This document shows, piece after piece, positions 5,348 through 59,100 of a stretch of DNA of 64,000 nucleotides. The stretch's first letter is position 1. The number at the start of each line of letters is the position of its first letter. Where the stretch lies: contig NC_057718.1 of assembly GCF_004010195.1 (NCBI RefSeq), positions 63,078,225 to 63,142,224 of the forward strand, written 5' to 3'. Made by a program: the position numbers and the translations under genes. The notes under the pieces were generated by a model. That model made no database searches. It was given only the letters and a program-made list of their open reading frames with translations, and was not told the origin of the DNA. The stretch comes from Chiloscyllium plagiosum. Taxonomy: Eukaryota.

Positions 5348-5896
5348 TTGTTTGTGTATGTTGAGCCTAGGACACTAACTTGAGAAACCTATGTTGTGAG
5401 CAATTCCACAGAAGGCACACCAGCACATATATAATACTCAACCTACTTCAGAACAGTGATAGGCCAGTCCAGCTTCATGAGGTTGGTTCACCATTCATTC
5501 CTTTTTCTAGAGTCCAGTGATTTGGACTTTCAGATGGACAATTTCATGCAGAGGTACAAAATGGTCATTTGACAGAATGAGATGAAGTATAAACTAAATC
5601 GTATAATTTCCAAGATGGTTCAGAAAGAGATTTGGTGGTGTATTTATGAAAATCTTTGAAGGTGCTATGAAATATTGACAATGCTACAAGGCGGCTTAGA
5701 TAATGCTTGGCTTTAATAATAGCAATTTGAGTGCAAAAACAATGAAGTTACATTAAATGTGTATAAAATCTAGTTTAGTGTGTTCAATTCTGGACACCAT
5801 AGGGAGGACATTCAAGTACTTCAAGGTGGTACCAAAGAAACTTTCTAAAGAAGTAAGAAGGATGAGACACCAAAAGAACTGCATATGCGGCAAATC

Positions 5897-6290
5897 AAAT
5901 AAAAACAGAAGCTGCTAGAAAAGCTCAGCTAGTCTGACAGCATCTGTGATGAGGAGTTGATAACAATCCAGTTGGGAGGGTTGATAGTTGTTAATAAAGA
6001 CTGTTAGTGCCCATTGTTAGCCACTTACAGGCTCCATTAATAGCTATTCACCCTCCCAGCCAGATGACCATCTACTCCTTTGTCTGTTCAACTGTGTTGT
6101 CTCTTTGGGCTCAACCCCTACCTATTGTTTACTCCTTATCCTCTCCCCCATCCTGTGTTCTACATATAATCCAACATTTTTCAAGCTACCACCAGTTGAC
6201 TAGTCACTGGACTCAAAACATTAACTTTGATTTCCCTTCACAGATGCTGCCAGACCTGCTGATATTTTCCAGCAACTTCTGTTTTTGTGC
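5897..6290. mobile_element. Penelope-like element ends (family 2), inverted pair
   Basis: aaaacagaagctgctagaaaagctcagc...cagcatctgtg near 5900 is inverted to cacagatgctgccagacctgctg...cttctgttttt near 6240. Confidence 0.65.
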
Positions 6291-7171: not shown

Positions 7172-7578
7172 GGAGAAAGTGAGGACTGCAGATGCTGGAG
7201 ATCAGAGCTGGAAAAGCGCAGCAGGTCAGGCAGCATCCAAGGAGCAGGAGAATCGACATTTCAGGCATAAGCTCTTCTTCAGGAATGAGGAAGGTGTGCC
7301 AAGCAGGCTAAGATAAAAGGTAGGGAGGAGGGACTTGGGGGAGGGGCATTGTGAATGTGATAGGTGGAAGAAGGTTAAGGTGAGGGTGATAGGCCGGAGA
7401 GGCCAAGAAGGCGGTGCCGAGTCCAAGGGTTGGGACTGAGATAAGGTGGTTGGGGTGGAGGGGAAATGAGGAAGCTGGAGAAATCTGCATTCATCCCTTA
7501 TGGTTGGAGGGTTCCTAGGCGGAAGATGAAGTGCTCTTCCTCCAGGCATTGTGTTGCCATGGTCTGGCGATGGAGGTG
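7172..7578 (-). mobile_element. 5'-truncated Penelope-like element (GIY-YIG C-terminus plus terminal repeat) with 14-bp TSD
   Basis: Minus frame reads LEEEHFIFRLGTLQP*GMNADF. TSD AAACTTATTTCTTT at 7158-7171 and 7579-7592. Confidence 0.85.
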
Positions 7579-8858
7579 AAACTTATTTCTTTTCCAAGAT
7601 CATAGTGTTCATGGTTTCTTTCAAGCTTGACATTTTTTCTCCTCTATTTCCAAGTTGTTGAAATACATGAATATACATACATATATAAAATTTGTGTGCA
7701 TTTGTTCTGTTGCACATAAAAATGGCATCTGCTCAAAGCTTCATTTTCCAAGAGTTGACTTCAGAGGCCACATGACTATGACAATTCACAGTACATTGCC
7801 TGCACTATACCTTCTAATTGCAAGTTGGCCATATGCAGTCAAAAAACAAGTTGTCATGCATGGGCAGAAAACAGTTAATTCTAGTCTGTCTCACTTAGGC
7901 ATCATATGCAATCTTTATATCATTAGAAAATCTGAATGCTTTGTGTGTAGGCTGTTGGTTTTCATTTGGTGTCGCTGGGGTAACAGTAACTTTCTTTCTA
8001 ATTGTTCTAGCAAGTTTTACTGCAAATACATTGCATTTGTTCGGGAGCAGTCCTCAAAGTCTGATGATCTATCCATTCCATGTTCAGTTAGCGAAATTAA
8101 ATCTTCCTTATCAGTGCCAGTTGTGAAAGAACAACTTCTTTGGTTACAAAAACAGAAATTACTCGAGATCGCCCAGCAGTTAGTTGAATATTGTGTTCTT
8201 CATTTGGCCCATCAGACAAGTCATTAAGTTACTGGAATATAACTGCATCCAATCTTACCTTCAGTGGCAGGCGACATACCAATAAGTGTGCGTTTAAGAT
8301 TGTACACACCTGTAAATATATTTAACATTAAAACAGGTAAATGGACACTATTCAATAAAGTTTGTAGAAATTAGTTTCTTTTGCATTAGATATTGAGATG
8401 GTTCTTGAGCAGATTCACTCCTTGTGAATGTACATTACCAGTTACTACTTAAGCTTCTGATTTACTGTAATTAATATTAATGCAGTTACTGACCAAGATA
8501 TGGTTCTAAATTTAATGATGCATCTGAACAGGAATCTTAACCAGATTTTTTTTGGGGGGTGGGGTGAGTTTAGCTCAATGATTCCTTGGAAACCCACTGA
8601 TCTGTTCCAGTCAATGACCCAAAACAGATAATACACAAGTTTTAATATGCCAGATTAATGTACATACGTTTTTCATAAACTGTAAATTATCAACTTAATC
8701 CTGTATATTTTGATTAGAAGAATCCAGTAAATAATCCTTAATAGCTAAGCATGGTTCATTTCACATTATGGCCAATCAACAGATTATTCTTAACCAGTAG
8801 ATGCAAAGTAGAATATAGTAAATGACATGTTGGTTTTTCCATCAAGTCGTCATCTGGA

Positions 8859-17100: not shown

Positions 17101-20100
17101 GTCTTATAAAGAAAGATGCTGTACAAAACCATAAATATGAGAACACCTAACCTTCGATTCCTGGATTATTTTAAATTAATTTTAAACAGACAATTGTTGG
17201 GAAGCTGCAGTAAAACAAATTAGTAATTAGGAAGGAAACAAAAGAATAATTTACTCAACGCAGACATTAATTACATCACCAAAGTTTCCCAATTCCCCAT
17301 GCAAATTACTTTTCAAATCAAACTTCTCTACCAATCTGGAACAAATATTTAGTTAGTTGTAACCAAATTCTAAAACAGTGAAAAGAAATAATCATTGCTA
17401 CTTATGCAATGTGCTCACCAGCAGTATGAGATGTATCTGTGACAACAGAAAATATATGTTGAAGAATATCACAAAAGTATGTCTGATAGAAACTTTGGGC
17501 AGCTGCCTCTTCTTGGGCAACATTTTGTAGCAGAGTATAGAGGATTTGCAGACCTATTATATAAAACATGGTTGCAAAAAGTCAATGGTCAGAAACAAAA
17601 TTATACATAGGAAATTTGATTAAAAAAATAAAGTTAAACAAACCTGTATCAGCAACATTTCTCATTGTGTGCTTAAAAGCCCATATTATAGAATCTAAAA
17701 CTAGCTTAAATTGTGCTGGAGGAATGGCTAGGAATGCTGGGAAACAATGTGAATTTACAGCTTGTAAAAGTAAGAAGAAATTTGTTCGATGTTCAGGATA
17801 TTCCTCGAAGTCCTGAAATTAAAAAAAAAGAAATAGTTGAGACATTACGGGAACTTTAGAAGAATTCAGTTGAAAAGAACACAAACATTGGAATCTCTAC
17901 AGCACCAAGTAGTAAAATGCCACTGTACACATGAAAATTCCTGATTATGGCTGCATTCCTTTCAATTAAAATAGTTTTTATTTTGAAAGTGTTAACCCTT
18001 GGACACAATAGTATGCAGTCATGCTACTTTCCACCTGGAAATAGGCTAAGTTTGCAAACAGATTCTGCACGGCCAAGATCAGCAAAGACAAATGTGGGAC
18101 AAAAGAGAAGGCAGTTCATAAATTTAGATATTAAATACAAAATGAAGGAAAATACCACTTCCTGATGATGCACAGCTTAAAAGCCTACAAATACATTAAA
18201 CTAGTTTTGAAGATCTTTTCAACCCTACTTCACACTGCAACATTCTCAAGTAAGTAGCATCCCTGGCCTCGAACAAGTGATTTTTCTTTAGGAAAATGCC
18301 CAGAATGCTGGAACAAGCTGTCACATTTTGTCCCATGTATCCACTCATGACAGCAGGGGAAACTCTGTGTGGGGAGTTAGACAATTTACGTGTTGCCCAC
18401 AACTTTTTGGGTCAGTGTAGAAGAAATCCAATACAGCATCCTAATATGCATTTAGAATGGAAAAAGCTAAAGACGAAATATTACTCTTAATATCCCTTAA
18501 TATGCAATAGGAGAAAGTGAGGTCTGCAGATGCTGGAGATCATAATATGCAATAAACAATTAGTTTAATTTTGGTCATCTTTGCTTTCAAACTAGAAATC
18601 CTTAGTGGATTCAAACCAGAAGTCCTTTTTGGACAATTATTCTCATTCCTTACGGAGGATCCTGAGGTAGCAGCAGAACCATGCACTTTGAAGCTTACCG
18701 TATCAGTTTAGAACTGAAAGGATGGACTTTGGGGGCAGCTATCTTGCTCAAAATGTTTACAACTACTCACCTCATGATACTAGCTCAGATTTTGCAATCA
18801 ATGGCAAAATGACATGGCCCACCAAAACAGGAAACTGCCCATCAAACTCTCTTTAATTTTCTATTAATGTGGGCAGCCAGTGGGTTCTAACATGCTATTC
18901 TCCTTCAAAGTGCTGCACTGCCATGAAACTGGAAAGGAACATGGCTCGTGAACAAATTTGTTTCTGTGTGGCATATTCCTTATTGCTGTGCAATCACACA
19001 ACTTTGAGAAGCTTGATCTCTTCAAACATTGAGTGATCTGTGTGGCATTAGTTTCCCCTTTCCCAACATTAGTTTAACTCAAATCAAAAAGCTGTCCAGA
19101 TGCCCAGCTAAAGTGTAATGAATAAACAGGATAATAACCAAAGTTCTCAGATAGCAAATTAGGAATTAAAGACACTGCCTATTTTTTGCTTTCATATTTT
19201 AGAGATCAAAATAAATGATCAGCACATACCTTAATAAAATCTAAAATTAAAAATGTGCAAATCACAATTGGAAAAATTATGAAGTCTACTCCATTTATAA
19301 ATCCAGTTACATTGCATTGAAAGCCTCCAACACTCCAGGGAAAATCACCCCTGCATATTCAGCCTTTTGGTATAACTAAGCTCTCCAACCCTGGCAACAT
19401 CTTTGTAAAGTCTTTGCTGAATCCTTTCAAGTTTCACAACATCTTTGCTATAACAGGGAGAACAGAATGTACTAAGTATTCCAAAAGTGGCTTCACCAAA
19501 GTACCGTACACCCGCAACATGACATCCCAATTCCTATACTCAATGCACTAACCAATAAAGGCAAGAACACCAAATACAGTAGCACCTCAACATACGAACG
19601 ACCCCGTTCACAAACAAATCGGTTTATGAACAGGATTGTACGTAAAATTTTGCTTCAACATACGTACGAAATTCAAGGTACGAACACAAAAAGCCAGTGT
19701 GCAACCATGTGGTTTCAATGTTCTGCTTTGCTACGCGCTTGTTGAATGCAAAAGCTCTTGGGCCCTGCGTGATCTCATTCAGTTAGTCTTTGGCACGTGC
19801 GCTGTGAACAGCGCTCGTTGCTACGTCCAAACATCCTTACGAACAATGGGAAAAATTGATTCAATTCGCAAACTTTTCGGTTCGCGAACCGGGTCCCGGA
19901 ACAGATTAAGTTCGTAAGTCGAGGCACTACTGCATCTTCTTCACTAACGTTTATACCGTGACTCCACTCAAGGAACTATAAACCTACACTCTAAGGTCTC
20001 TCTGTTCAGCAACACTCCCCAGTCCTTACCATTAGTGTATTAGTCCTGGCCTGATTTACTTGTCCAAAGTGCAGCACTTCATATTTATCAAAATTAAACT

Positions 20101-26100: not shown

Positions 26101-29100
26101 GTACCAAATTTTAATTTAAAAACCTTTTATTTCCAACTTAAAATCCATGCATGATTTTTGTAATTCCCGTAGCTCAACACATGTCTGGGTATGCTATTTT
26201 CTACCTATATTTAAAGTCTGTAAATACAGGATCCTTGTATCCAATGAACCGTTTACCTTACCTTGTTAATCATATTTAAAGTGCATTCGAAGACAGCATC
26301 AAATATCTGAGGAATTTCAGAAGTAATATGTCCACCCAGTTTATTCACAATGGTTGCCATGGTGCTAAGTACTTCTGGTTCTCTAGCAGCTGGCACATTC
26401 CTCTGGTAATCAATAAGCACTGCATCCAGCAATGGAGGAACAAAATTTTCGCCTACCTACAATGATCAACATTGTAAAAATTAACTTTTTGCACAAGAAT
26501 AGGACAGTTTAAACAGTAATAATTCTTGAAAATAATCAGTAGTCAAGTCTTATCTCCACCCTAGCTTGTCAAACAAACAATTTTTTTGTTATGATTGTTA
26601 CATAGAGAAAAATCCTATGAAATTGCAAAAAGAACCTCAGTATGGCATTGAAAGCGTTTACATCAACCTCCTCCAATAGAAGATCCAATGTTAAATGACT
26701 ACATTTAACCTCTAAACAGTAGTTTTCATTGTGATGACTTATAATGTTAAATGTACTGCAGCATACTTCTTCTATAATACCATAGATGTTGGTATCAATC
26801 TGTTACATTAGGCCATAAAGTCTGGGCAAACTCAATAGTGTGTACACAGTTACAGACTTTAACTACCAAACGCCGCTGTAGAGGTATTCTGAGATTCTCC
26901 ACCACCTAAGCCTGTCAGCCATTTATATAAATGGAGTGATTAGCATGATATACATGCATGGCAATATCAGCTACTTGTGATAGATGTCCCTGAGCCAAAC
27001 TGAATTTGCACACATGTGGCTGATTTCACTATGTTCTGTGCAATAATCTCACATTGGTTGTTTATGTACACCTCCTGAGGTTCAAATTCTGAGTGCACCA
27101 ACTGTTTAGCTGAGGACAGACAGTACAGGCTCAATTTGGATTGGGGAAGTAAGGAGGGGAATGGAGTGCTGACAGCACCGAGGACTTTCCACCAATCTGG
27201 CATTCAGCGATCACTATTTCACTGAATGCCAGAAGGTTGGTTAAATAGTCCAATCCTGTCGACAGAATGCATCAGTCACTCGGTAATGGCATAGCACTGC
27301 CATGTAGAATTTATGCCTGTGCTCCTTTCACCACCTAGAAGCTGGGTTCTCTTGGCACCAGTTTACACCTCTCACTTCAGCTATCCTGGCTGATTAAACT
27401 CCCCTACTGGCTGTTTCTTTCCTTTTGTACAGTTCCTCATTATAGCCAGTTGAAACTTTATTGCTGGAACAGCACAGCAGGTCAGGCTGCATCCAGGGAA
27501 CAGGAGATTTGACGTTTCGGGCACAGGCCCTTCTTCAGGAATCCTCATTATAGCCAACCTTGAATTAAAACTTGGCTAATGGTAACAATTCCTGCATCAT
27601 TACTGAAAATATAACAGAAACACAAGTTTCACAACCACTCCTGCACCGCATGTGAAAAATGATCAGCTTTCCTTTGTATCTGAATTGTAAGTGAATATCA
27701 ATACCCAATCATACGCAACTTGAAAAGACAATGCATGATTTAAAAAAAAAAATTTCAGGATTAAGATAATCAGATTTTGAGTTACAGTCCCAAAGAAATG
27801 AGGGGTGATTTGTTGCTGACAAGAAACTAATTGCAGTTGAAGATGCAAAAGGAATGTAATCATAGCCAAGTCATGCTTAAACAATGCACACATTTTCAAC
27901 TTTACTGACATTTGAGACACATGAAGAGGCCAAACCAAAAAGGTTCACTTCAATCTCAAGATCTTTATGGCCAAAGTAAAAAAAAGTAGAATAGAATAAC
28001 ATTAGGCTGACCAATAATCCTAAGCATTCCCGGTCACTCCCACCATCCTGATCAGCTGAAATTTGCAGCCTGAAATTTCACTCCTTGAATCAAACAAATG
28101 ATTCAAGCTCAAGCCCAGCATTCCTCACTGCCCTCAAAATGATATCCAGACTCAGGCTGAGACCCAGACAACTCTTGCCTCAACTTGGCTAAATCATGGA
28201 CCCAGTCCCAACTGACACATTCCTCACTCAAGTGAGCAGAGTAATAGCTTCTCAGAACTTGCTTCATCATAGTCATACTCTCCTTCATGCTGCGGGAACA
28301 GCCAGAAATACAGATTTCCTCTGCCCCACTCTTGGCCTATTCAATCATTGATTTTGTCTCAACGGGTAGCAAAACTGGGAGAGGGAAACTACGAATGGAG
28401 GAACAGCTCTTCTCAGATCCTGCTCATGTGTAGGGACCTATTGCTCTGATTGGTTATCCTCATGATTCATATCATAGAACACAGAACAATACAGTGCAGA
28501 ACAGGCCCTTCAGCCCTCAATATTGCGCCGACCTGTGAACTATTCTCAGCTCATCCCCCTACACTATCCCAAAATCATCCATGTGCTTATCTAAGGATTG
28601 TTTAAATCTCCCTAATGTGGCTGAGTTGACTACATTAGCAGGTAGGGCATTCCATGCCCTTTACCACTCTGCATAAAGAACCTGCCTCTGATATCTGTCT
28701 TAAATCTATCACCCCTCAATTTGTAGTTATGCCACCTCGTACAAGCTGACGTAGTCATCCTTGGAAAGACACTTTCACTGTCAACCCTATCCAATCCTAT
28801 GATCATCTTGTATGTCTCTATCAAATCCCCTCTTAGCCTTCTTCTTTCCAATGAGAACAGACCCAAGTGTCTTAGCCTTTCCTCCTAAGACCTTCCCTCC
28901 AGACCAGACAACATCTTGGTAAATCTCCTCTGCACCTTTTCCAATGCTTCCACATCCTTCCCAAAATATGGGGACCAGAACTGTACACAATATTCCAAGT
29001 GTGGTCTCACCAGCATTTTGTATAGTTACAGCATGATTTTGCCGCTCCGGAACTCAATCCCTCTACGAATGAAACCTAACACATCGTATGCCTTCTTAAC

Positions 29101-32100
29101 AGCACTATCCACCTGGGTGGCAACTTTCAGGGATCTATGTATATGGACTCCAAGACCTCTCTGCACATCCAAACTACCAAGAATCCTTCCATTGACCCAG
29201 TACTCTGCCTTCCTGTTATTCTTCCCAAAGTGCACCACCTCACATTTAGCTGCATTGAACTCCATTTTTCACCTCTCAGCCCAAGTTTGCAGTTTATCTA
29301 AGTCCCCCTGCAACCTGTAACATTCTTCCAAACTGTCCACTACTCCACCAACTTTAGTGTCGTCTGAAAATTTACTAACCCATCCACCTATGCCTGCTTC
29401 TAAGTCAATTATAAAAATGACAAACAGCAGTGGTCCCAAAACAGATCCTTGTGGCACACCACTAGTAACCGGACTCCAGACTGAATATTTTCCATCATCA
29501 ACCACCACTCGCTGCCTTCTTTCAGAAAGCCAGTTTCTAATCCAAAATGCTAAATCACCCTCAATTCCATGCCTCTGCATTTTCTCCATCAGCCTACCAT
29601 GTGGAACCTTATCAAAGGATTTACTGAAATCCATGTATACCACGTCAATTGCCCTACCCTCACCTACATGCTTGGTCGCCTTCTCAAAAAACTCAATGAG
29701 GTTTGTGAGACACGACCTGTCCTTGACGAAACCATGTTGACTATCTGAAATCAAACTGTCGCTTGCTCGATGATTATAAGTCTTATCTCTTACAATCCTT
29801 TCCTACAACAGAAGTAAGGCTCACTGGTCTATAATTACCTGGGTCACCTCTACTGCCCTTCTTGAACAAGGGCACAACATTTGCAATCCTCCAGTCCTCT
29901 GGTACTAAACTTGTAGACAACAACGACTCAAATATCAAAGCCAAAGGCTCTATCACCTCCCTAGCTTCCCAGAGAATACTCGGATAAATCCCATCCAGCC
30001 AAGGGGACTTGTCTACTTTCACTCCTTCTAGAATTGACAACACCTGTTCGTAACTAACCTCTATCCTTTCTAGTCTAATATCCTGTACTCATTCTTCTCC
30101 TCTACAATAGTCTCCTGTTCCCGAGTGAAAACCAATGAGAAATATTCATTTAGCACCTCTCAGATCTCCACAAGGTCCACACTCAACTTCCCACTTCTGT
30201 CTTTGATTGGTCCTATTCCCACCCCAATCATCCTTTTATTCCTCACATATCTATAGAAAGCTTTAGGGTTCTCTTTTATTCTATTTGCTAAAGACTGCTC
30301 GTGTCCTCTCTTTGCTCTTCTTAACTCTCTCTTTAAATCTTTCCTAGCTGATCTGTAACTCTTCATCGCCTCATCTGAACCATCTTACCTCATCAACACA
30401 TACAGAAATTCTTCTTAACAAGAGATGTAATTTCTGTAGTAAACCACAGTTCCCTTACCTTATCACTTCCTCCCTGCCTGACAGGGACATACCTATCAAG
30501 GACACACTATCTGTTCCTTAAACCAGCTCCACATTACCATTATCTGCATCCCCTGCATTTTGCTACCCCATTTTATGCATCCTAATTTTTGCCTAATCGC
30601 ATTATAATTGCCCTTGCCCCATCGATGACTCATGACCTGTAGCACGTACCTATTCCTTTCCATTGCTAAACTAAACGTAACCGAATTATGGTCACTCTCT
30701 CCAAAGTGCTCACCTACAACTAAATCAAACACCTGGCCTGGTTCATTACCAAGCACCACATCCAGTGTGGCCTCTCCTCTTGTCAGCCCTTCGACATACT
30801 GTGTCAGGAAACCCTCCTGCACACATTGGACAAAAACTGATCCATCCGACATACTACAGTTATAGCGTTTCCAGTCAATGTTGGGGAAATTAAGGTCCTT
30901 TATAATGATCACCCTGTTCCTTTCACTCCTACCCAGAATAAATTTTGCTAATCCTCTCTTCCACCTCCCTGGAACTCTGCGGAGGCCTATAAAAACTCCA
31001 AGCAGTGTGACCTCTCCTCTCCTGTTTCTAACCTCAGCCCACACTACCTCAGTAGATGAGTCCTCATCAAAAGTTCTCTCAGCCACCGTTATACTATCCT
31101 TGACTAACAAGGCCACGCCTCCTCTTTTACTGCTTTGCCTGTTCTTAATGAAAGATCGAAACCTTGGAACCTGCAAAATCCATTCCTCACCCTGCTCTAT
31201 CCATGTCTCCGAAATGGCCATAACATCGAAGTCCCAGGTACCTATCCATGCTTCAATCCTCGCCTCCTGCCCCATCCCAGGGTTTTCAGGAAAAGCATTC
31301 ATCTGTCACCACAATGTATTTTGACACTCACCCCCCAACACAATTTTAGTCTGCTTGCCCTTGAAACTAAAACTGCAACTGTCAAAGTATTTTATGACAA
31401 AAATTGGGAATGTGATTAATTGATTCGGTTTACAGACAACATAGAAATAGTTGGCAGATGAAATGGAATATGAAAGAATGAGGTGAGGGAGATGTATAGC
31501 AAGTTAATTTATATATATTTTAATATCACACTGTAGAATTAGAATTTTGAAGTAGATTTGAACTAGATTTTAGTCTGTGCATATAAAAAGGGGATGAAGG
31601 AGAGGTGGGGGTGGGAGGATAGGGCAAGAGCAGGTGCCGAGCACATGGTGGTGATGGGTGGGTGGAAGAAGAAAATTTACTTGCAATGCAGAGGTTTCTA
31701 TGAGCTGACAGAATAAACAACAAACAGGATAATCTTGCTTTCAGTTAGAACGATCTGGAATTTTTTTTGCTGCGGCGGGAGGGAAACCCATAGCTTGGGA
31801 AAGGATTTCAGCTTGGAAAAGTACTGGTTGGCATTAGATGCAAGAAATAGTTTTCCAACCAGAGTTAAGTCATACAAGTTAAGAAATGGGTTACCCCAGT
31901 GTAAGGAGTTCAGTTGGCAAGTTCCAGATCAGAAAATGTTTGGTTAGAGGGGTTATTTGGAGCTTGGAAAAAAAACTCAGCTCAGTTGTATGAAACTCTA
32001 GAGGCTATTTTCAAGACTGGGAATTTAAAACTAGTTAAATCAAAACTACAGATACAATAGGAAAGAGACTTTTTCTCTCATATTATGAGAATTGTAAAGG

Positions 32101-35100
32101 GATGCTATTGGGGGTAGATGGAATATTATATTTTTAAACTATTTTGAAATCTTTCAAGTTGTGCTGTATGTAAACAGCTAGATTACATTTAATATTTTCC
32201 TCTGCATATAAAACCTGTTTTCTTATTAAATTATTTTTAAAAATATGATCTATCAAGCAAGATTTTAGTCTGGGATGAGAATTTTCCTGTAGTAAAATAA
32301 ACTGGGATCATAACAGGTGACAACTTCAGCAACGTATAGGTGAAATATAAAACCATAAAGGATAAAACATTGATTTCAGCTGTACAGAAAGAAAAGTTGG
32401 TAATCTATTTGGAGCGTGGGTTCAAAGACAAAGGGATCATAGTTACATAAGAAATAAAAGAACACCAAATTGCCTATCATAAGCTGCTCCTTCATTTATG
32501 GTTCCCACTCCACTTCTCTACAATTCCCTGGGACCAAAAATCTTTTTAACGCAGCCTTAAATATGTTCAGTGATGGCACATCCATAATACCCTGGGAGTG
32601 AAGAAGTCCATAGGGTTGGAAAGCTTTAGAATTCTCTATTTTTGAAATTCTAGATTTTCAATTGCTAAATATATACACAAGACAAGTCAGTGGAATAGTT
32701 TGGATGAAATGCAGAAAATACAAGTGGTAGGGCATTCAGCCCTTCAAGCTTGGCCCACCATTCAATACATTGGCTGATCATCTAATTCAGTACCCTGTTC
32801 CTGCTTTCTCCCCGTACTCTTAATCCAAGTCTTTGAAATCAATGTTTTGGCCCCAACAGCTTTCGGAGAGAGTGAATTCCAAGGCACACCACTCTGAATG
32901 AAGGAATTTCTCATCTCAGTCCAAAACAGCCTACTCCATAACCTTAAACTGTCAATCTGATCCTGGACTCCCCAGTCATCAGGAATATCTTTCCTGCATT
33001 TCTTCCATCTAGCTCTGAGAACTGCATAGGTTTCAAAGAGAGCACCCATCCCCATTCTTTCAAACTTCAGTGAATATAGTCCCAACAGATCCAGCCCCTC
33101 TTCATAACTCAGTCCAGCCATCCCAAGAATCAGTCTGGTAACAGTTGTTGTACTGCCTCTATAGCCATATGGTTCTTCTTCAGATAAGGAGAACAGAGCT
33201 GCACACAGATCCAGGTGAGATCTTACCAAGGCCCTGTACAACTGCAGCAAGACATTTTGCTCATGCACTCAAATCCTCTTCATATACAGGCCATGTGTCT
33301 TTCTCACTGACTGCTGCAGGACAGAGGTCTCATTGCAACTCTCCCTTTCTTAATCTATTGTCATTCAGGTAATAACATACCTTCCTGTTTTTGCTACCAA
33401 AGTGGATAACCTCACGTTTATCCACACATTCACTACATTTTCCCATTCATTCAACTTGAGTCACACTGGAATATCTCTGCACCCTCCTCACAGCTCAGTC
33501 TTCAACCCTGCTTTTGTCATCTACAAACTCATCTAAATTATTAATATATATTGAGAATAGCTGGGGTGCAAGCATTGTTCCCTATGATATTCCAGCTCGT
33601 CCCTGGTCACCACTGAGAAAAAAGATCTTTGTATGCCTACTCTTTTTCAGTCTGCCAACCATTTCTCTATCCATGTTCAGTACACCATTCCCAAAGCCAC
33701 GTGCTTTAATTTTCCTTGCTAATCTCTTAAATGGGACTTAATCAAAAGCTTTTTTAAAGTCACAAGTAAACAACATCCATTGGCTCCCCGTATCAACTTT
33801 CCTACTTATAGCCTCGAAAACTTCCAGTAGATTAGTCAAGTATGATTTCCTTTAATTAAATCCATGCTGACTTTGTCCAATCCTGTCAGTGTTTTGCACT
33901 GAAACCTTTGGCCCCACAACCGATGATGTCTGGCCAATCGACTTACAATTCCACTTGCTCTCTATCGTCTTTTAAAATAATGGGGTTAAATTAGCTGTCC
34001 TTCAAATAGTCAGAATCTACAAATTAGCTGTTTTTCTATACAGATGCTGCCAGGTTTGTTGAATATTTCTAATAGGGACTATTTTATTCTTCGAGGAGAA
34101 AGTGAGGTCTGCAGATGCTGGAGATCAAAGTTGAAACTTTATTGCTGGAACAGCACAGCAGGTCAGGCAGCATCCAGGGAACAGGAGATTCGACGTTTCG
34201 GGCACAGGCCCTTCTTCAGGATTCCTGAAGAAGGGCCTGTGCCCGAAACGTCGAATCTCCTGTTCCCTGGATGCTGCCTGACCTGCTGTGCTGTTCCAGC
34301 AATAAAGTTTCAACTATTTTATTCTTTCACAGCAAAGGGAAAAAAACATTTTTGTTTTTATTTCAACTAACGCTAAGTCCCAATGGACAAAATTACCAGA
34401 AACCATTTAAGTATAAATGTAAAAAGCTAGGAGCTGATTAGAACAAGTTAACATGTTTCTGTAAAAAGCAGATAATATATAATCAAAAGGCAAGGAAGAA
34501 ATAATGTCTAGTAAGCTCAGAGCATAACAAGGTCGACAATACAAATTTCAAACGAATTATGTGGGTTGATGCACAGTCATTCAAGTTCAAAGGTTGAGAC
34601 TGCAAATGGAGGATAGGTGAACAAAGGGATTTAATATTTATTAAGTTTAGAAAGTGGAAGCATGGTCATCACAGAGGTATGATGTTTCTTCATGTGGGGG
34701 AAATCTAGAACATGAGGCAATTGTTTTAAATCTGCTACCCATTATCCTAGAACAGAGATGAGGAGAAATTACTTCTTTCAAAGAATCGTACATATGTGGA
34801 ATTAACTATCCTAAAGTGTGATGGATGCTGGGACATGGAGTATATCTGAGTTGATGGGCAGATTTTTTAATTCTTAAGGGGTTGAAAGGTTATGGAGAGT
34901 GACATTGGTGCCTAGAGGAGATCAACCATTACTGTACCAAATGGCGGAGCTGGCATGAGGGTCTGAACTGCCTCCTAATTCTTATGAAAAGAAAGTCAAG
35001 GATGAGGAGCGTCAAAAGGTGTGGCGGTAGAAAAGCGCAGCCAGTCAGGCATCGGCCCAGTCAACGTTTAAGCATAAGCTTGAAGAGGAGCTTGGACTCG

Positions 35101-38100
35101 AAACATCGACTCCCCTGCTCCTCAGATACAGCCTGACCAGCTGTGTTTTTCCAGCGCCACACTTTGTGACTCTGATCGCTAGCATCTGCAGTCCTCACTT
35201 TCTCTAATGTGAAAGAGTGGTGGAAGGAAGGAAGAATGGAACGATTGAGGCAAGAAAAATACTTGGGATTTACAGCATCTTCACATAATGGTTACACATC
35301 CCAAGGTGCTTTAAAGCTGATGAATTTAGATGCACCATTGCATAAGTTAGGGAAACATGACAGCTAACTTCTTGCTGCAAAAGCCTCCAAACAGCAATAA
35401 TAACTGGATGATACTGTTTTAGAAAGTCAGAGAATAAATGGTGTTCGGGATATGGAAGTATTACTGACACTATACAGAATAATAGCTAGACCACTGACAA
35501 TTGGTCAAAAAGACCAACAGGTTGGCAGAGGTCAAATCTGAAATCAATTACAGCTACTCACAATAAAGGAAATTAGCTACAAGAAATTGGCTACAAGAAA
35601 TTGGATAACTTTGGAGAATATTCCCTTGAAAGTTGAGAGAGTTGAAGGCAAATCTAGAAAACAATGCTAAAATGAGACAACGTAGATGGAAGTCAACATT
35701 TCAATGAATGGAACTTTAACATAAAAGACAAAGCTCTTCAGACTAGAGTGAGATACCCCATAAACACAGATACACAATCAACAGCAAATCTAATAAAACT
35801 TGCTGAAGTATGGGCTTTAAAAAAAGGACAGGGACAAAGATATATGGTCGACGAATAGAGAAGTTAGGCTTAATTGGCAACAATCAACTTAGAAATAAGA
35901 TGGTTTGAAAATATCAAATAAGAAAGATCGCTTGCACAAGAATGCTTCAACATGGACAAATGGAGTCAAAGCTCAGTAACGTACAAAATCAGTTCCAGAC
36001 TGTCAACACCTCATCGGGAATCATGTGATCACTTGATAACTTATAGTAGCCAAAAGTAAAACCACAGCAGGATTACAATTCTAACACTTGCAGAGGATAA
36101 AAATAGAAATTGCCAAGAAGGCTCAGCAGGTCTGGCAGCATCTATAAAGAGACAGAGTTAATGTTTCAGATCAAGTGACCCTTCCTCAGAAGGAGATCAC
36201 CCCTTTAGCTTTAAAAATTAGGACTGGCATTCGGATAAAATGAAGTGCTAAAGCATTTAACAGTCTACTACAACTATACAGCTCTGAACAAGTTTCTTTT
36301 GAATTGGAAAAACTTACTCCATTTCTGCCCTCACAGATATTGTCAGAACAGAGTTTCTCCAACACTTTTATATCAGATCTCCTGCAGTACTTTGCTCTTT
36401 TGCTACAAAATACCATTGTGTAGTACCAAACGTCTCTCTTGGCCATGAACCAAAATAAAATCAACATTTTCTACACCACCCCCACCACTATTCTTCAGGT
36501 GTAAGGTAGAATGACGAGAATAGAAAATTTTGTGCTGGGTGTTAAGAGTAGAAGATACACATAACATGATGGAGTAGAGATTTAATCAGGCATTCTTGAT
36601 CAGTTCAAGAAAACACTGGACAACCCAACACAAACTCTGTATCAAAAAAGAAATTAACACTTTATTCCTCCACATTCAAGTTCCTATTTATCCATCACTT
36701 ACCATCTGTGGATCATTGGATCGGCTCACCCAACCGGAAATAAGCTTCAGGGTTTCCCTTTTTACTGTGCGCATACTTCTGATCAGGGGCTGTTTTGTAA
36801 CGACATCACCTACAATATAACAGATATCAATGAAAATATAACATACCTTGCTGAGAGCCATTTCTTTTTCTAACCAACACACCTAGTTTGTAATGAATTT
36901 TCACATGACATTTCTATTCAGGGTGAAATCACAGTTGTAAGTTCCCCAACAAAATTTAATAAAAAACAAACCAAAATGTACAAACTCTGATCATTCGATT
37001 GAAATTGTACCAACATATATTTAATTCACATTGGAGATTAGTAAATTACAAGGATCAGAGATAACATACTTCATCATAGAGTAATACAGCATGGAAAGGG
37101 GCCCTTTGGCCTAAACGGGTCCATGCTGACCATGGTGCCCACTCAGCTAATTCCAAATGCCCGCATTTGGCCCATATCACACTAAACCCTTCTCATCCAT
37201 GTACCAATCCACACTTTAAACAAAATGTTGCTATTGTACCTGCCTCAACCATTTTCTCTGGCAGCCCATTCCACATACCATATGCACCACTCTCTGCGGG
37301 AAGTTGCCGCCCTTCAGGTCCTCCTTAAATCTTTCCCCTCTCACTTTAAATCTATGCCCTCTAGTTTTCCATTCCGTGTGCCTGGGAAAACTATTATGTG
37401 CATTCATTCTATGCTACTCGTAATTTTGTACACCTCAATAAAGGTCAGCCCTCATTCTCCCATGTTCCATGGAATCTAGTCCTACCCTGGCCAACCTCTC
37501 CTTCTAACTCAGGCCTACTAGTCCAGGCAACATCCTTGTAAATCTTCTTTGCACCCCTTCCAGTCTAAGTCTTTCCTATAACAGGGTGATCAAAACTATA
37601 CACAATGCTCCAAGTGCAGCCTCAACAACAACTTATATAACTGTAACAGAACATCCCAACTCCTATACTCAATGCCTCGACCAATAAAGGTTAGCACGCT
37701 TCTTCACCACCCTGTCTACCTGTGACGCCGCTTTTGAAGAACTATGTACTTGTACCCCTAGGTTCCTGTTCCACAACACTCCTCAGGACCGTATCCTTTA
37801 TTGTACAAGTCTTAGCTTAGTTTGACTTTCCAAAAAGTGTAACACCTCACACTTATCTATATTGAATTGCATTTGCCAATCCTCAGCTCACTTCCTCATC
37901 TGATCAAGATCTCTTTGTACTTTTTGATCTCCCTCACTACCAACGACACCTCCTAATTTTATATCATCCGCAAACTTACTAATCATAGCTTGCACATTCA
38001 AATCCAGATCACTTAAGTAACAAATAACAAAGATCCCAGCACTGACCCTTATGGCACATCACTAGTCACAGGCTTTCTGTCCAAGAAATAACCTTCAACC

Positions 38101-56100: not shown

Positions 56101-59100
56101 TCTCCACATCATGGCAACGATCTACAAGGCACTGGTTAGGAGTGTGATGAAATATTCTCCACCTGTCTAATTTCGTGCAGCTCCAACAACAGTCAAGTTT
56201 GACACTATTCCCAATAGAACAATCTCCTGCTCCGTCACCTTCAAAATTTTATTCCCTTCATCAGCAATGCACGAAGACAGTGTGTACTATCTACAAGACA
56301 CACTGCAATAATTCATAGAGGGTTTTTTTTTCTCACAGCACCTCCCAAACACTCAACCTCTACTACCTAGAAGGATAAGGGCGACAGATGCATGGGAACA
56401 CCGTCTTGACTTGGAAATATACTCCTATTCCTTCAGTGTGGCTGGGTAAATATCCTGAACCCCTTCCCAACAGCACTGCGGGTGTGTTACACCCCAAAGA
56501 CTACAACTCTTCAAAGTGACAGCTCACAGCTATCTTTTTCAGGGTAAAAAAACGACAAGCAGTAATTGCAAACCTATTCAATGGCACTCATAGACCCTGA
56601 CCATATACAGAGAAACCTCAAATATCCAAATTTCAGATTATCCAGCAAGATGGCAAGGTCCTGATGCTTTGCAAAACTATGCTATCCAGCATTCGATTAA
56701 CCGAATGAAATATTGCCCGCCTGTGTCCTTCGGATAGTCAAGGCTCCTCTGTAAAAAGGATATTGATAACTTGAATGAAGGGAATGAGTATACAGTAGCC
56801 ACGTTTGCTGATGACAAATATCAGTAGGAAAGCAAGTTGTGAAGGGGACATAATCTGCACAGGATAGGCTGTGGACAAAAATTTGGTGGATGAAGTATGA
56901 CAAAACACACTGCCCACTTTGACAATGGAAAGGTTGAATATTACTTAAGGGAGACAGAAGAAATCTGTGGTGCAGAGATTTTGAATCTCAAAAAGCTAGA
57001 ATGCAAGCACAGGCAAGTAATGGTAAGATCACAAGAAGATTATCAATTATCACAATATAAGACAAGATGGTGCTACAGTTATACACAAGGTCCAAATGAC
57101 AGCAACTCATAATACTACATGGTTTTCTTCCCTCTGCTCAAGGGAGGTACATAATTGCATTCAAAGCATTTCAGTGAAGCTTCATTCACTTAATTTCTAG
57201 GGTGAACCACTTGCCTTATAAAGGAAATGTTCAGCAGGTTAGGTCTATGCACACTGCTATTTAGAAGATGGCTTTACTGAAGCATGTCAGATTCTGAGGG
57301 GACTTAGAGTCGATGCCAGAATGATGTTTCTCCACATGGGGCAGTCTGGAACAAGGGCTCATAGTTCAAAAGATATAGATCTCCAATTAAGAAGAAATGG
57401 AGAGGGACTTTTCTTTGAGGGTCACTAATACTTTGGAATCTTCAGAAAGCAATGGCATTTGGGTGAATACATTAAAGACTCACTTAAGGTAGATTTTTGA
57501 TCGACAAAGGAGTCAGAGCTTTTGGGCTATGCAAGAAAGTGACAGCAAAACCATTATCAGAACAGCCATGATGTTACTGAATAAACTGTCCCCATGACTT
57601 GTCCTACCTGCCTATCTTCTTTTCCACCTTTCCACTCCACCCTCCCCCCGCCCTATCACCTTCATTCCCTCCCCCACTCACCTATTGTACTCTATGCTAC
57701 TTTCTCCCCACCCCCACCTCTAACTTATCTCTCCACCCTTCAGGCTCTCTGCCTGTATTCCTGATGAAGGGCCTTTGCCCGAAACGTCGATTTTACTGCT
57801 CCTCGGATGCTGCCTGAACTGCTGTGCTCTTCCAGCACCACTAATCGAGAATCTGGTTTCCAGCATCTGCAGTCAGTCATTGTTTTTACCTACTGAATGG
57901 AAGGTTACTCCTACTTATGTTTAAGTTGATAAACATCTACAGACATGCAAACATGTTGGAGTGCTATTGTAACCATCAACTTGCTTAGTTTTAGCCATGT
58001 TTATAAATACCCCAGATGGTGGAATGGAAAACCTTACCAAGAGTTTCTCTCATATTTTTATACAAGTTGATAGAGTCTGTATCCTTCATGAACTCTCGTA
58101 CAACCTCGCCTTGGTCATTTTCCACCACAAGTACTTCTTCTGGTTTGGCCATGCGACTGACCATTAGAAGGCGCACCTTTGAGGAATATTTTATAGTTAT
58201 ATATCATCAGTCTCACATACAGCAAATGAAGCAACCATGCTAGAATATCATGATTTGGAGGTGTCTGTGTTGGACTGGGGTGTACAAAAGTTAAAAATCA
58301 TGCAACACCAGGTTATAGTCCAACAAATTTATTTGGAAGCACTGCTCCTTCATCAGGTGGTTGTGGAGTATCACAATCTTCACAACCATCTGATGAAGGA
58401 GTATTGTTCCAAAAGCTAGTGCTTCCAAATAAAACGTTGGCCTATAACCTGGTGTTGCGTGATTTTTAATCATGAATATCAAGTCACATTGAATGATTCA
58501 CATTCAAGTGTGACATTTAATTTGCAAACAGCAAATCCAATAAACTGGCACTTAATTTCAAAGAACTTCAAAGACTGTTTCTAATGAAAGTGAACTAAAA
58601 TGTTGCTCCAATAAGCACTTACATACATTAAGTTAGAAAACATTTTGATCTGAACATTAAAGCAAAGGAATGATAGAAATTTTATTCACAAAGGACAAAG
58701 AATCTAAATGGTGCGATTCCCTCCACAATAGTACATCTCAGAAGAACAATGCAATGAGTATGTCCAGTGATTAAATTTTACTGAAGCAATAGGATAGATT
58801 TCTATTAACTCACTGAATGCTTACCTTCGATAACACTGGCAAATAAAGTTGTCTTCTTGGAGGAACATCAAAATGTTGACTTCCAGAAAGCACAGGCGAT
58901 GCAGGTGTTGAAAATGGACTTTCCCTATAGAGTTCAGAAGCCAAATGGTTCCAATACTCGAGGCAAATTTTGAATATCTCCGTTTCCTCCACTTCTGACA
59001 CAAGCAGCATATAGTGAAGAGCCTACAGAATATTCAAAAGATTTAAACTGAATTATTCTTTCCTCAGTTATGCACAATAATTTATGACAGCATTATAAAG

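What the first reader, a model, noticed from the sequence alone, without database searches (positions are those of the whole stretch)
34095..34326. Perfect 187-bp palindrome holding two back-to-back hammerhead ribozyme cores inside an XPO1 intron
Seen: the 93-bp arms are exact reverse complements around one T, and the insertion is flanked by a 14-bp duplication, so it is probably recent. The centre reads GATTC-CTGAAGA-A-GGGC(CTGT)GCCC-GAAA-CGTC-GAATC. That is a complete minimal type-I hammerhead with a perfect 5-bp stem I on the plus strand, and the same core with one stem-I mismatch on the minus (XPO1-sense) strand. Established: Penelope-like elements carry minimal hammerheads with a palindromic stem III thought to act as dimers, and they form inverted pseudo-LTRs. 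Inference: in XPO1 pre-mRNA the perfect hairpin should sequester the ribozyme, preventing self-cleavage while creating long dsRNA (a possible ADAR or Dicer substrate); the DNA could form a cruciform.
Basis: partly seen in the sequence, partly recalled or inferred. Interest (0 to 1): 0.72.

Follow-up and report, generated by a model that had tools for sequence, protein, structure and literature searches.

The report
Young Penelope-element hairpin in XPO1 intron
This is a real, recent, short insertion of a common jumping gene whose two mirror-image ends each carry the element's usual small self-cutting RNA motif; it is an ordinary insertion shape, not a regulatory device of the XPO1 gene.

Summary
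In detail: 93-bp exact inverted arms (34129-34221/34223-34315), a 14-bp target duplication, a minimal hammerhead core on each strand, inside an XPO1 intron. A contig from a related species lacks the insert and has the target once, and contigs from the same species carry both junctions, so it is a real, recent insertion. It is a 221-bp stub of a very abundant Penelope-like element (PLE): a 37-nt 'tail' on one side plus two head-to-head truncated ends, the published PLE insertion signature. Three such palindromes and four insertions with 12-15-bp duplications lie in this window. The two cores are on opposite strands, so no transcript holds both. A lone core cannot close stem III, and the hairpin costs about 60 kcal/mol to open: the ribozyme is predicted silent, as a by-product. 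An unsequestered sister core sits in the same intron, which argues against a protective role. No Rfam hammerhead hit, no locus-specific RNA evidence. Most likely origin: both cut DNA ends primed reverse transcription at the element's two start sites (inferred). This scan had already noted the same family and shape on other DNA of this genome.

The parts
34078..34091 (.). Left copy of the 14-bp target-site duplication (86% A+T)
   Evidence: present once in the related species' contig
34092..34128 (-). 37-nt PLE 'tail', on one side only; 3' end of the element's sense strand. The first 2-3 bases may be untemplated
   Evidence: loose ends pile at 34094/34095 in all four runs; a 33-nt tail-only insertion at 18510-18542 equals 34095-34127
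34129..34221 (-). Left arm: truncated pLTR piece, element sense on the minus (XPO1-sense) strand
34187..34224 (-). Minimal type-I hammerhead on the XPO1-sense strand; A-A mismatch in stem I; predicted C17 at 34192
34221..34222 (.). Head-to-head junction; A34221 fits both arms (1-nt microhomology), T34222 is the unpaired centre
   Evidence: loose ends before 34221
34223..34315 (+). Right arm: tail-less truncated pLTR piece, element sense on plus; its last 3 nt are shared with the duplication
34220..34257 (+). Minimal type-I hammerhead, 5-bp stem I (4 native pairs), 4-bp stem II, loopless palindromic stem III; predicted C17 at 34252
34313..34326 (.). Right copy of the target-site duplication
34012..34091 (+). 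Decayed end of an older, related repeat family into which the young element inserted
   Evidence: I3; local alignments to 5 window copies, scores 29-47, no null computed
27449..27541 (-). Sister insertion: one tail-less arm only, 15-bp duplication, 2 differences in 96 nt from the right arm; unsequestered core in the same XPO1 intron
18510..18542 (-). Sister insertion: tail only, 12-bp duplication
7172..7578 (-). Longer, older copy: ORF C-terminal stub, C-rich 3' region, hammerhead, pLTR piece, tail; 14-bp duplication
36694..36813 (-). XPO1 exon upstream of the host intron (approximate, from the protein match)
26262..26456 (-). XPO1 exon downstream of the host intron (approximate, from the protein match)

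Best explanation
A young, heavily 5'-truncated insertion of an abundant Penelope-like element, neutral for XPO1. SHOWN: insert limits, 14-bp duplication, empty site in a related species, tail on one arm only, family membership in the window. INFERRED mechanism: the PLE endonuclease cut AT-rich DNA on both strands 14 nt apart; each 3' end primed reverse transcription on pLTR RNA, one at the outer start site (arm with tail) and one at the inner site about 37 nt in (arm without tail); both cDNAs ran through the uncleaved hammerhead, stopped 2-4 nt beyond its core and were joined head to head. The hammerhead is the element's normal dimer-type motif. On either strand the antisense arm is transcribed before the core, so a 92-bp hairpin forms and the core stays silent.
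For: Empty site: X14 contig 9 covers 33500-34091 and then 34334-34780 with 8 letters between. Both junctions lie in X1 contigs with 0 differences. The window holds all three products that two-end priming predicts: tail only (18.5k), tail-less arm only (27.4k, 2.9k), both arms (34.2k, 25.7k, 35.1k); in 3 of 3 palindromes one arm has the tail and the other stops at about the same inner site. Four duplications of 14, 15, 12 and 14 bp among 10 copies tested. Frangieh 2024 (PMC11167929): a PLE protein cuts and extends both strands at AT-rich DNA, starts at two sites that delimit the tail, and uses uncleaved RNA. Craig 2021 and Arkhipova 2013 describe the inverted truncated copy, one-sided 30-40-bp tail and duplications. 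Hairpin.
Against: No call shows a full element with RT and GIY-YIG domains; the protein link is a 39-aa stub with no Pfam hit and a weak Atlas lead. No listed contig spans the centre at this locus, and X1 may be the assembly's own sample. Covariation in 11 cores did not beat shuffles (45 of 500). Two-end priming is extrapolated from another PLE in vitro. At 27.4k the 4 nt after the cDNA end also fit a palindromic template. 6 of 10 copies tested had no duplication longer than 7 bp.
Confidence: 0.72

Rival explanations
1. Same PLE identity, but the palindrome arose by self-priming (snap-back): one strand folded back near the hammerhead's 5' edge and was copied, as proposed for head-to-head PLE junctions on an antisense template.
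For: Arkhipova 2013 reads palindromic inverted junctions as self-priming. The arms are 93 of 93 identical with a 1-nt centre.
Against: It does not by itself explain why the second arm stops at the site where the lone 27.4k arm starts, nor the tail-only insertion. Only 1 nt of microhomology lies at the centre.
Confidence: 0.15
2. A non-autonomous palindromic mini-element copied whole from a hairpin master RNA.
For: The 27.4k copy continues 4 nt in agreement with the palindrome's centre, though those bases also belong to its duplication. One contig of organism B spans a similar centre (X14 record 13: 81 nt, 6 other letters, 2 gaps).
Against: The three palindromes in the window have three different centres. 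A 92-bp duplex is a poor template (inference).
Confidence: 0.06
3. A functional element of XPO1: the hairpin was kept because it locks the ribozyme, or supplies dsRNA for ADAR or Dicer, and so tunes XPO1 RNA.
For: The hairpin is predicted to dominate on the XPO1-sense strand.
Against: Absent from a species about 3% diverged in the flanks (33 other letters in 1039), so no conservation. An unsequestered sister core (penalty 11.9 kcal/mol, though with its first stem-I pair broken) sits in the same intron. Published single minimal cores did not cleave in vitro.
Confidence: 0.04
4. Assembly or fold-back artefact at the centre.
For: No listed contig bridges the centre locus-specifically.
Against: Short-read contigs show the two junctions with opposite element orientation and 0 differences; the structure is asymmetric (tail on one side), flanked by a duplication and by different unique DNA; the empty site fits.
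Confidence: 0.03

Closest known systems
EN+ Penelope-like element insertions with inverted pLTR and tail (Arkhipova 2013 PMC3846280; Craig 2021 PMC8557442)
   Same: Head-to-head inverted truncated copy, 30-40-bp tail on one arm only, target duplication, hammerhead in the pLTR piece.
   Different: Reduced to 221 bp with no ORF between the arms; duplications here are 12-15 bp against 8-10 bp in the rotifer passages read.
Minimal type-I hammerheads of metazoan PLEs (Cervera and de la Pena 2014, PMC4209133)
   Same: [quoted passage not shown]
   Different: Helix II is 4 bp (7-8 in their Schistosoma families); the two opposite-strand cores abut within 6 nt, against about 100-700 bp in that paper.
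PAc, Poseidon element of Anolis (Frangieh 2024, PMC11167929)
   Same: AT-rich targets, two fixed 3' ends delimiting a tail, cDNA running through the uncleaved hammerhead.
   Different: That paper (parts read) does not show how inverted arms or duplications form; the clade of this family was not determined here.
Non-LTR retrozymes (bioRxiv 10.64898/2026.07.22.740005)
   Same: Type-I hammerhead, PLE-derived, non-coding.
   Different: Retrozymes are head-to-tail tandems with two or more same-strand cores; this is head-to-head with one core per strand.

Membership tests
EN+ Penelope-like element | Inverted 5'-truncated pLTR copy adjacent to the 5' end | tested here: met
   3 palindromic copies in the window
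EN+ Penelope-like element | 30-40-bp tail at one end only | tested here: met
   37 nt at 34092-34128; same asymmetry at 25.7k and 35.1k
EN+ Penelope-like element | Target-site duplication at AT-rich DNA | tested here: met
   14 bp with empty site; 4 of 10 copies tested have 12-15 bp, 60-86% A+T
EN+ Penelope-like element | Single ORF with telomerase-like RT and GIY-YIG endonuclease in the parent | tested here: inconclusive
   Only a 39-aa stub at 7465-7581: no Pfam hit; 3 unannotated short matches of 6 hits, the other 3 being repetitive proteins; one match gave an Atlas neighbour with GIY-YIG in 15% of members, score 0.91, 152 features
Minimal type-I hammerhead of PLEs | Core CUGANGA, GAAA, UH with helices I and II | tested here: met
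Minimal type-I hammerhead of PLEs | Palindromic, loopless helix III (needs a dimer) | tested here: met
   ACGU self-complementary
Minimal type-I hammerhead of PLEs | Covariation supporting the helices | tested here: inconclusive
   11 cores: helix II 86% paired, helix I 59%; score reached by 45 of 500 shuffles
Minimal type-I hammerhead of PLEs | Self-cleavage 3' of C17 | not testable with these tools
   No pile-up of read ends in one poly(A) single-cell run, about 2% read; not decisive
Rfam hammerhead families | Covariance-model hit | tested here: not met
   none; only sub-threshold hairpin-type hits. That the Rfam models expect a closed helix III is recalled, not tested
Non-LTR retrozyme | Head-to-tail tandem with two or more same-strand cores | tested here: not met
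   one core per strand, head to head

The most novel reading that the evidence does not exclude
These stubs are a genomic record of the unresolved PLE integration step: a dimeric PLE protein makes a 12-15-nt staggered cut, both ends prime at the two tail-delimiting start sites, and synthesis ends at a programmed boundary at the hammerhead's 5' edge (a short pLTR transcript that starts there, or a bound ribozyme that stalls RT). Head-to-head products silence their own ribozyme on both strands, which may make them better tolerated in introns than lone arms.
Probability: 0.35. Interest if true: 0.5.

Novelty: new member of a known kind. Interest (0 to 1): 0.2.

Why it matters
As a single locus it matters little: a neutral, recent repeat in an intron. 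Its value is as a clean specimen. With an empty site and sister insertions of three shapes, it constrains how Penelope-like elements build their inverted ends, which Craig 2021 (passages read) calls undefined. Perfect young copies could also serve as presence/absence markers and as natural substrates for testing whether long intronic hairpins are edited in this lineage.

Tried and rejected
Rfam at gathering score (whole window) and at E up to 10 (33900-34500): no hammerhead; the miRNA-family hits are below threshold and reflect the hairpin. No whole genome is held, so no genome-wide census was possible. A 23-nt family motif in three collections gave 0 viral, 4 metagenome and 3 genome matches; flanks are unrelated bacterial sequence, rejected as chance. 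No RNA holder of the stretch was listed; this is not evidence. RNA run X21: 1451 reads laid on repeat parts only, none on the unique flanks; A>G places 8 and T>C 9, against 6/4, 8/4 and 9/14 in the three contig sets, so no editing signal and no locus-specific test; no start/end pile-up. Polymorphism within the species: X5 contigs stop at 34080 and resume at 34349, undecided. Summed depth on the element is millions against about 12 on the flanks, but the tool states this is no copy number, so none is given. Six-frame motif scan for RT or GIY-YIG motifs in the window: 2 irrelevant hits. Lone-arm folds: z between -0.2 and -2.4 in 6 pieces, none closing the full hammerhead. Sequence look-up of earlier findings: nothing. 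Six paper searches listed no title or abstract start about this family; Repbase and Dfam were not available, so it may already be catalogued.

Full report
Observation. The palindrome is as described: arms 34129-34221 and 34223-34315 are exact reverse complements around T34222, while the next-best perfect arm in the window is 11 bp. A 14-bp direct repeat flanks the insert (34078-34091, 34313-34326); the same search at 1000 random positions reached 12 or more once. The insert proper is 34092-34312 and includes 37 nt (34092-34128) outside the palindrome. The neighbouring minus-strand exons match consecutive parts of CRM1_C and exportin-1, so the site is in a roughly 10-kb XPO1 intron.

Real and recent. 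Contigs of run X1 (same species; possibly the assembly's own sample) cover 33500-34114 and 34293-34780 with no differences, so both junctions exist and the element reads in opposite orientations at them. A contig of run X14 (organism B) covers 33500-34091 and then 34334-34780 with 8 letters between, 33 other letters in 1039: the insert plus one copy of the target is missing. That is the empty site. No listed contig bridges the centre at this locus, and run X5 could not decide polymorphism (I laid 4 of the 24 runs listed).

A family member. The window holds 11 arms of this family at 8 places, and about 7 fragments of older related repeats. Tens of thousands of contigs per run (29,246; 32,968; 22,799) were laid on the stretch, with depth concentrated on the element. 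Two sister insertions are nearly identical: a lone tail-less arm at 27.4k (2 differences in 96 nt, 15-bp duplication) and a tail-only piece at 18.5k (33 of 33 identical, 12-bp duplication). An older, longer copy at 7.2k has a 14-bp duplication and runs upstream into an ORF end. The other 6 of 10 copies tested, older or with uncertain limits, showed no duplication above 7 bp. In 3 of 3 palindromic copies (34.2k, 25.7k, 35.1k) one arm has the tail and the other stops at about the same inner site; their centres differ. Of 9 arms that reach the start of the core, 7 end within about 5 nt of it and 2 continue upstream. That the organism is a shark-like fish is my recall of the repeat, and the label used in earlier notes; no call names it.

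The hammerhead. Both cores meet the minimal descriptor of Cervera and de la Pena (PMC4209133; parts 1-2 of 4 read): short helix I, an extra base before helix II, G10.1-C11.1, palindromic loopless helix III. My descriptor found 4 sites in the window and none in 30 random windows. Among the differences listed, two frequent ones (34237, 34239) fall in loop II and one (34255) in stem I. Rfam gave no hammerhead hit, and covariation among 11 cores was not above shuffles. In that paper a single motif did not cleave and dimers cleaved weakly. Here each strand carries one sense core, so the two cannot pair as a dimer in cis. The plus-strand fifth pair is accidental, and the XPO1-sense core has a stem-I mismatch.

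Fate in RNA. The XPO1-sense strand folds into a 92-bp hairpin (-199.9 kcal/mol, z -27.9). Forcing the hammerhead fold costs 59.7 (plus) and 63.6 (minus) kcal/mol, against 11.9 for the lone arm at 27.4k. In a head-to-head palindrome the antisense arm is transcribed first on either strand (follows from the geometry). So sequestration is well predicted, but it needs no selection. The lone 27.4k core lies on the XPO1-sense strand of the same intron without such a hairpin, although its first stem-I pair is broken. One RNA run gave reads on the repeat only, no excess of A-to-G over DNA and no end pile-up; it cannot test this locus.

Mechanism. Frangieh 2024 (PMC11167929; parts 1-2 of 4 read) shows a PLE protein, predicted to be a dimer, cutting and extending both strands of AT-rich DNA, starting at two sites that delimit the tail, and using uncleaved RNA. 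Applied here (inference): a 14-nt staggered cut, one end priming at the outer site and the other at the inner site, both cDNAs ending just past the core and joined through 1 nt of microhomology. Tail-only, arm-only and two-arm insertions are the three expected outcomes, and all are in the window. The cDNA ends do not match the ribozyme's cut site (3' of 34252). The main rival is self-priming, proposed by Arkhipova 2013 (PMC3846280; passages).

Comparison. The inverted truncated copy with a one-sided 30-40-bp tail is described as typical of PLEs (Craig 2021, PMC8557442, passages; curation guide PMC8969392, passages). It works like, and by structure is, a truncated EN+ PLE insertion; the defining ORF could be tested only on a stub and was inconclusive. 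It is not a retrozyme (bioRxiv 10.64898/2026.07.22.740005; part 1 of 5 and passages). Passages of PMC5753468 and PMC2377424 added nothing decisive. No supplements were read; those of PMC4209133 list many motifs and might include this family. Earlier notes of this scan report the same family, palindromes and clustered ends elsewhere in this genome; I saw them after forming this reading, and they are unchecked notes, not support.

Verdict. Real, recent and well defined, but a new member of a known kind. Interest 0.2.

Noticed in passing
window 27434-27556: The 15-bp target of the lone-arm insertion begins with 8 nt that match the element's own sequence just upstream of the hammerhead (as read in the 7.2k copy). 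The target overhang may have annealed to the RNA where cDNA stopped.
   Followed up: partly
window 34012-34091: The young element landed in the decayed end of an older related repeat, near the position equivalent to its inner 3' end; possible preference for pLTR-like AT-rich targets.
   Followed up: partly
window 18498-18554: A 33-bp tail-only insertion with a 12-bp duplication, a very small retrotransposition product.
   Followed up: yes
window 58291-58469 and 5876-6286: Decayed head-to-head pairs of two other related families; the first has hammerhead-like cores in both arms, the second about 290 nt between arms.
   Followed up: no
window 34253-34257: The young subfamily has A at 34255, giving a U-A pair in stem I where about 60% of laid family contig depth in X1 and X5 has T (U-U mismatch).
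   Followed up: no
window 28630-31305, minus strand: A long, broken LINE (endonuclease and RT-like frames, CR1-like by recall) in the same XPO1 intron.
   Followed up: no
window about 8250-8310, minus strand: A short exon-like stretch with splice-like edges; gene not identified.
   Followed up: no
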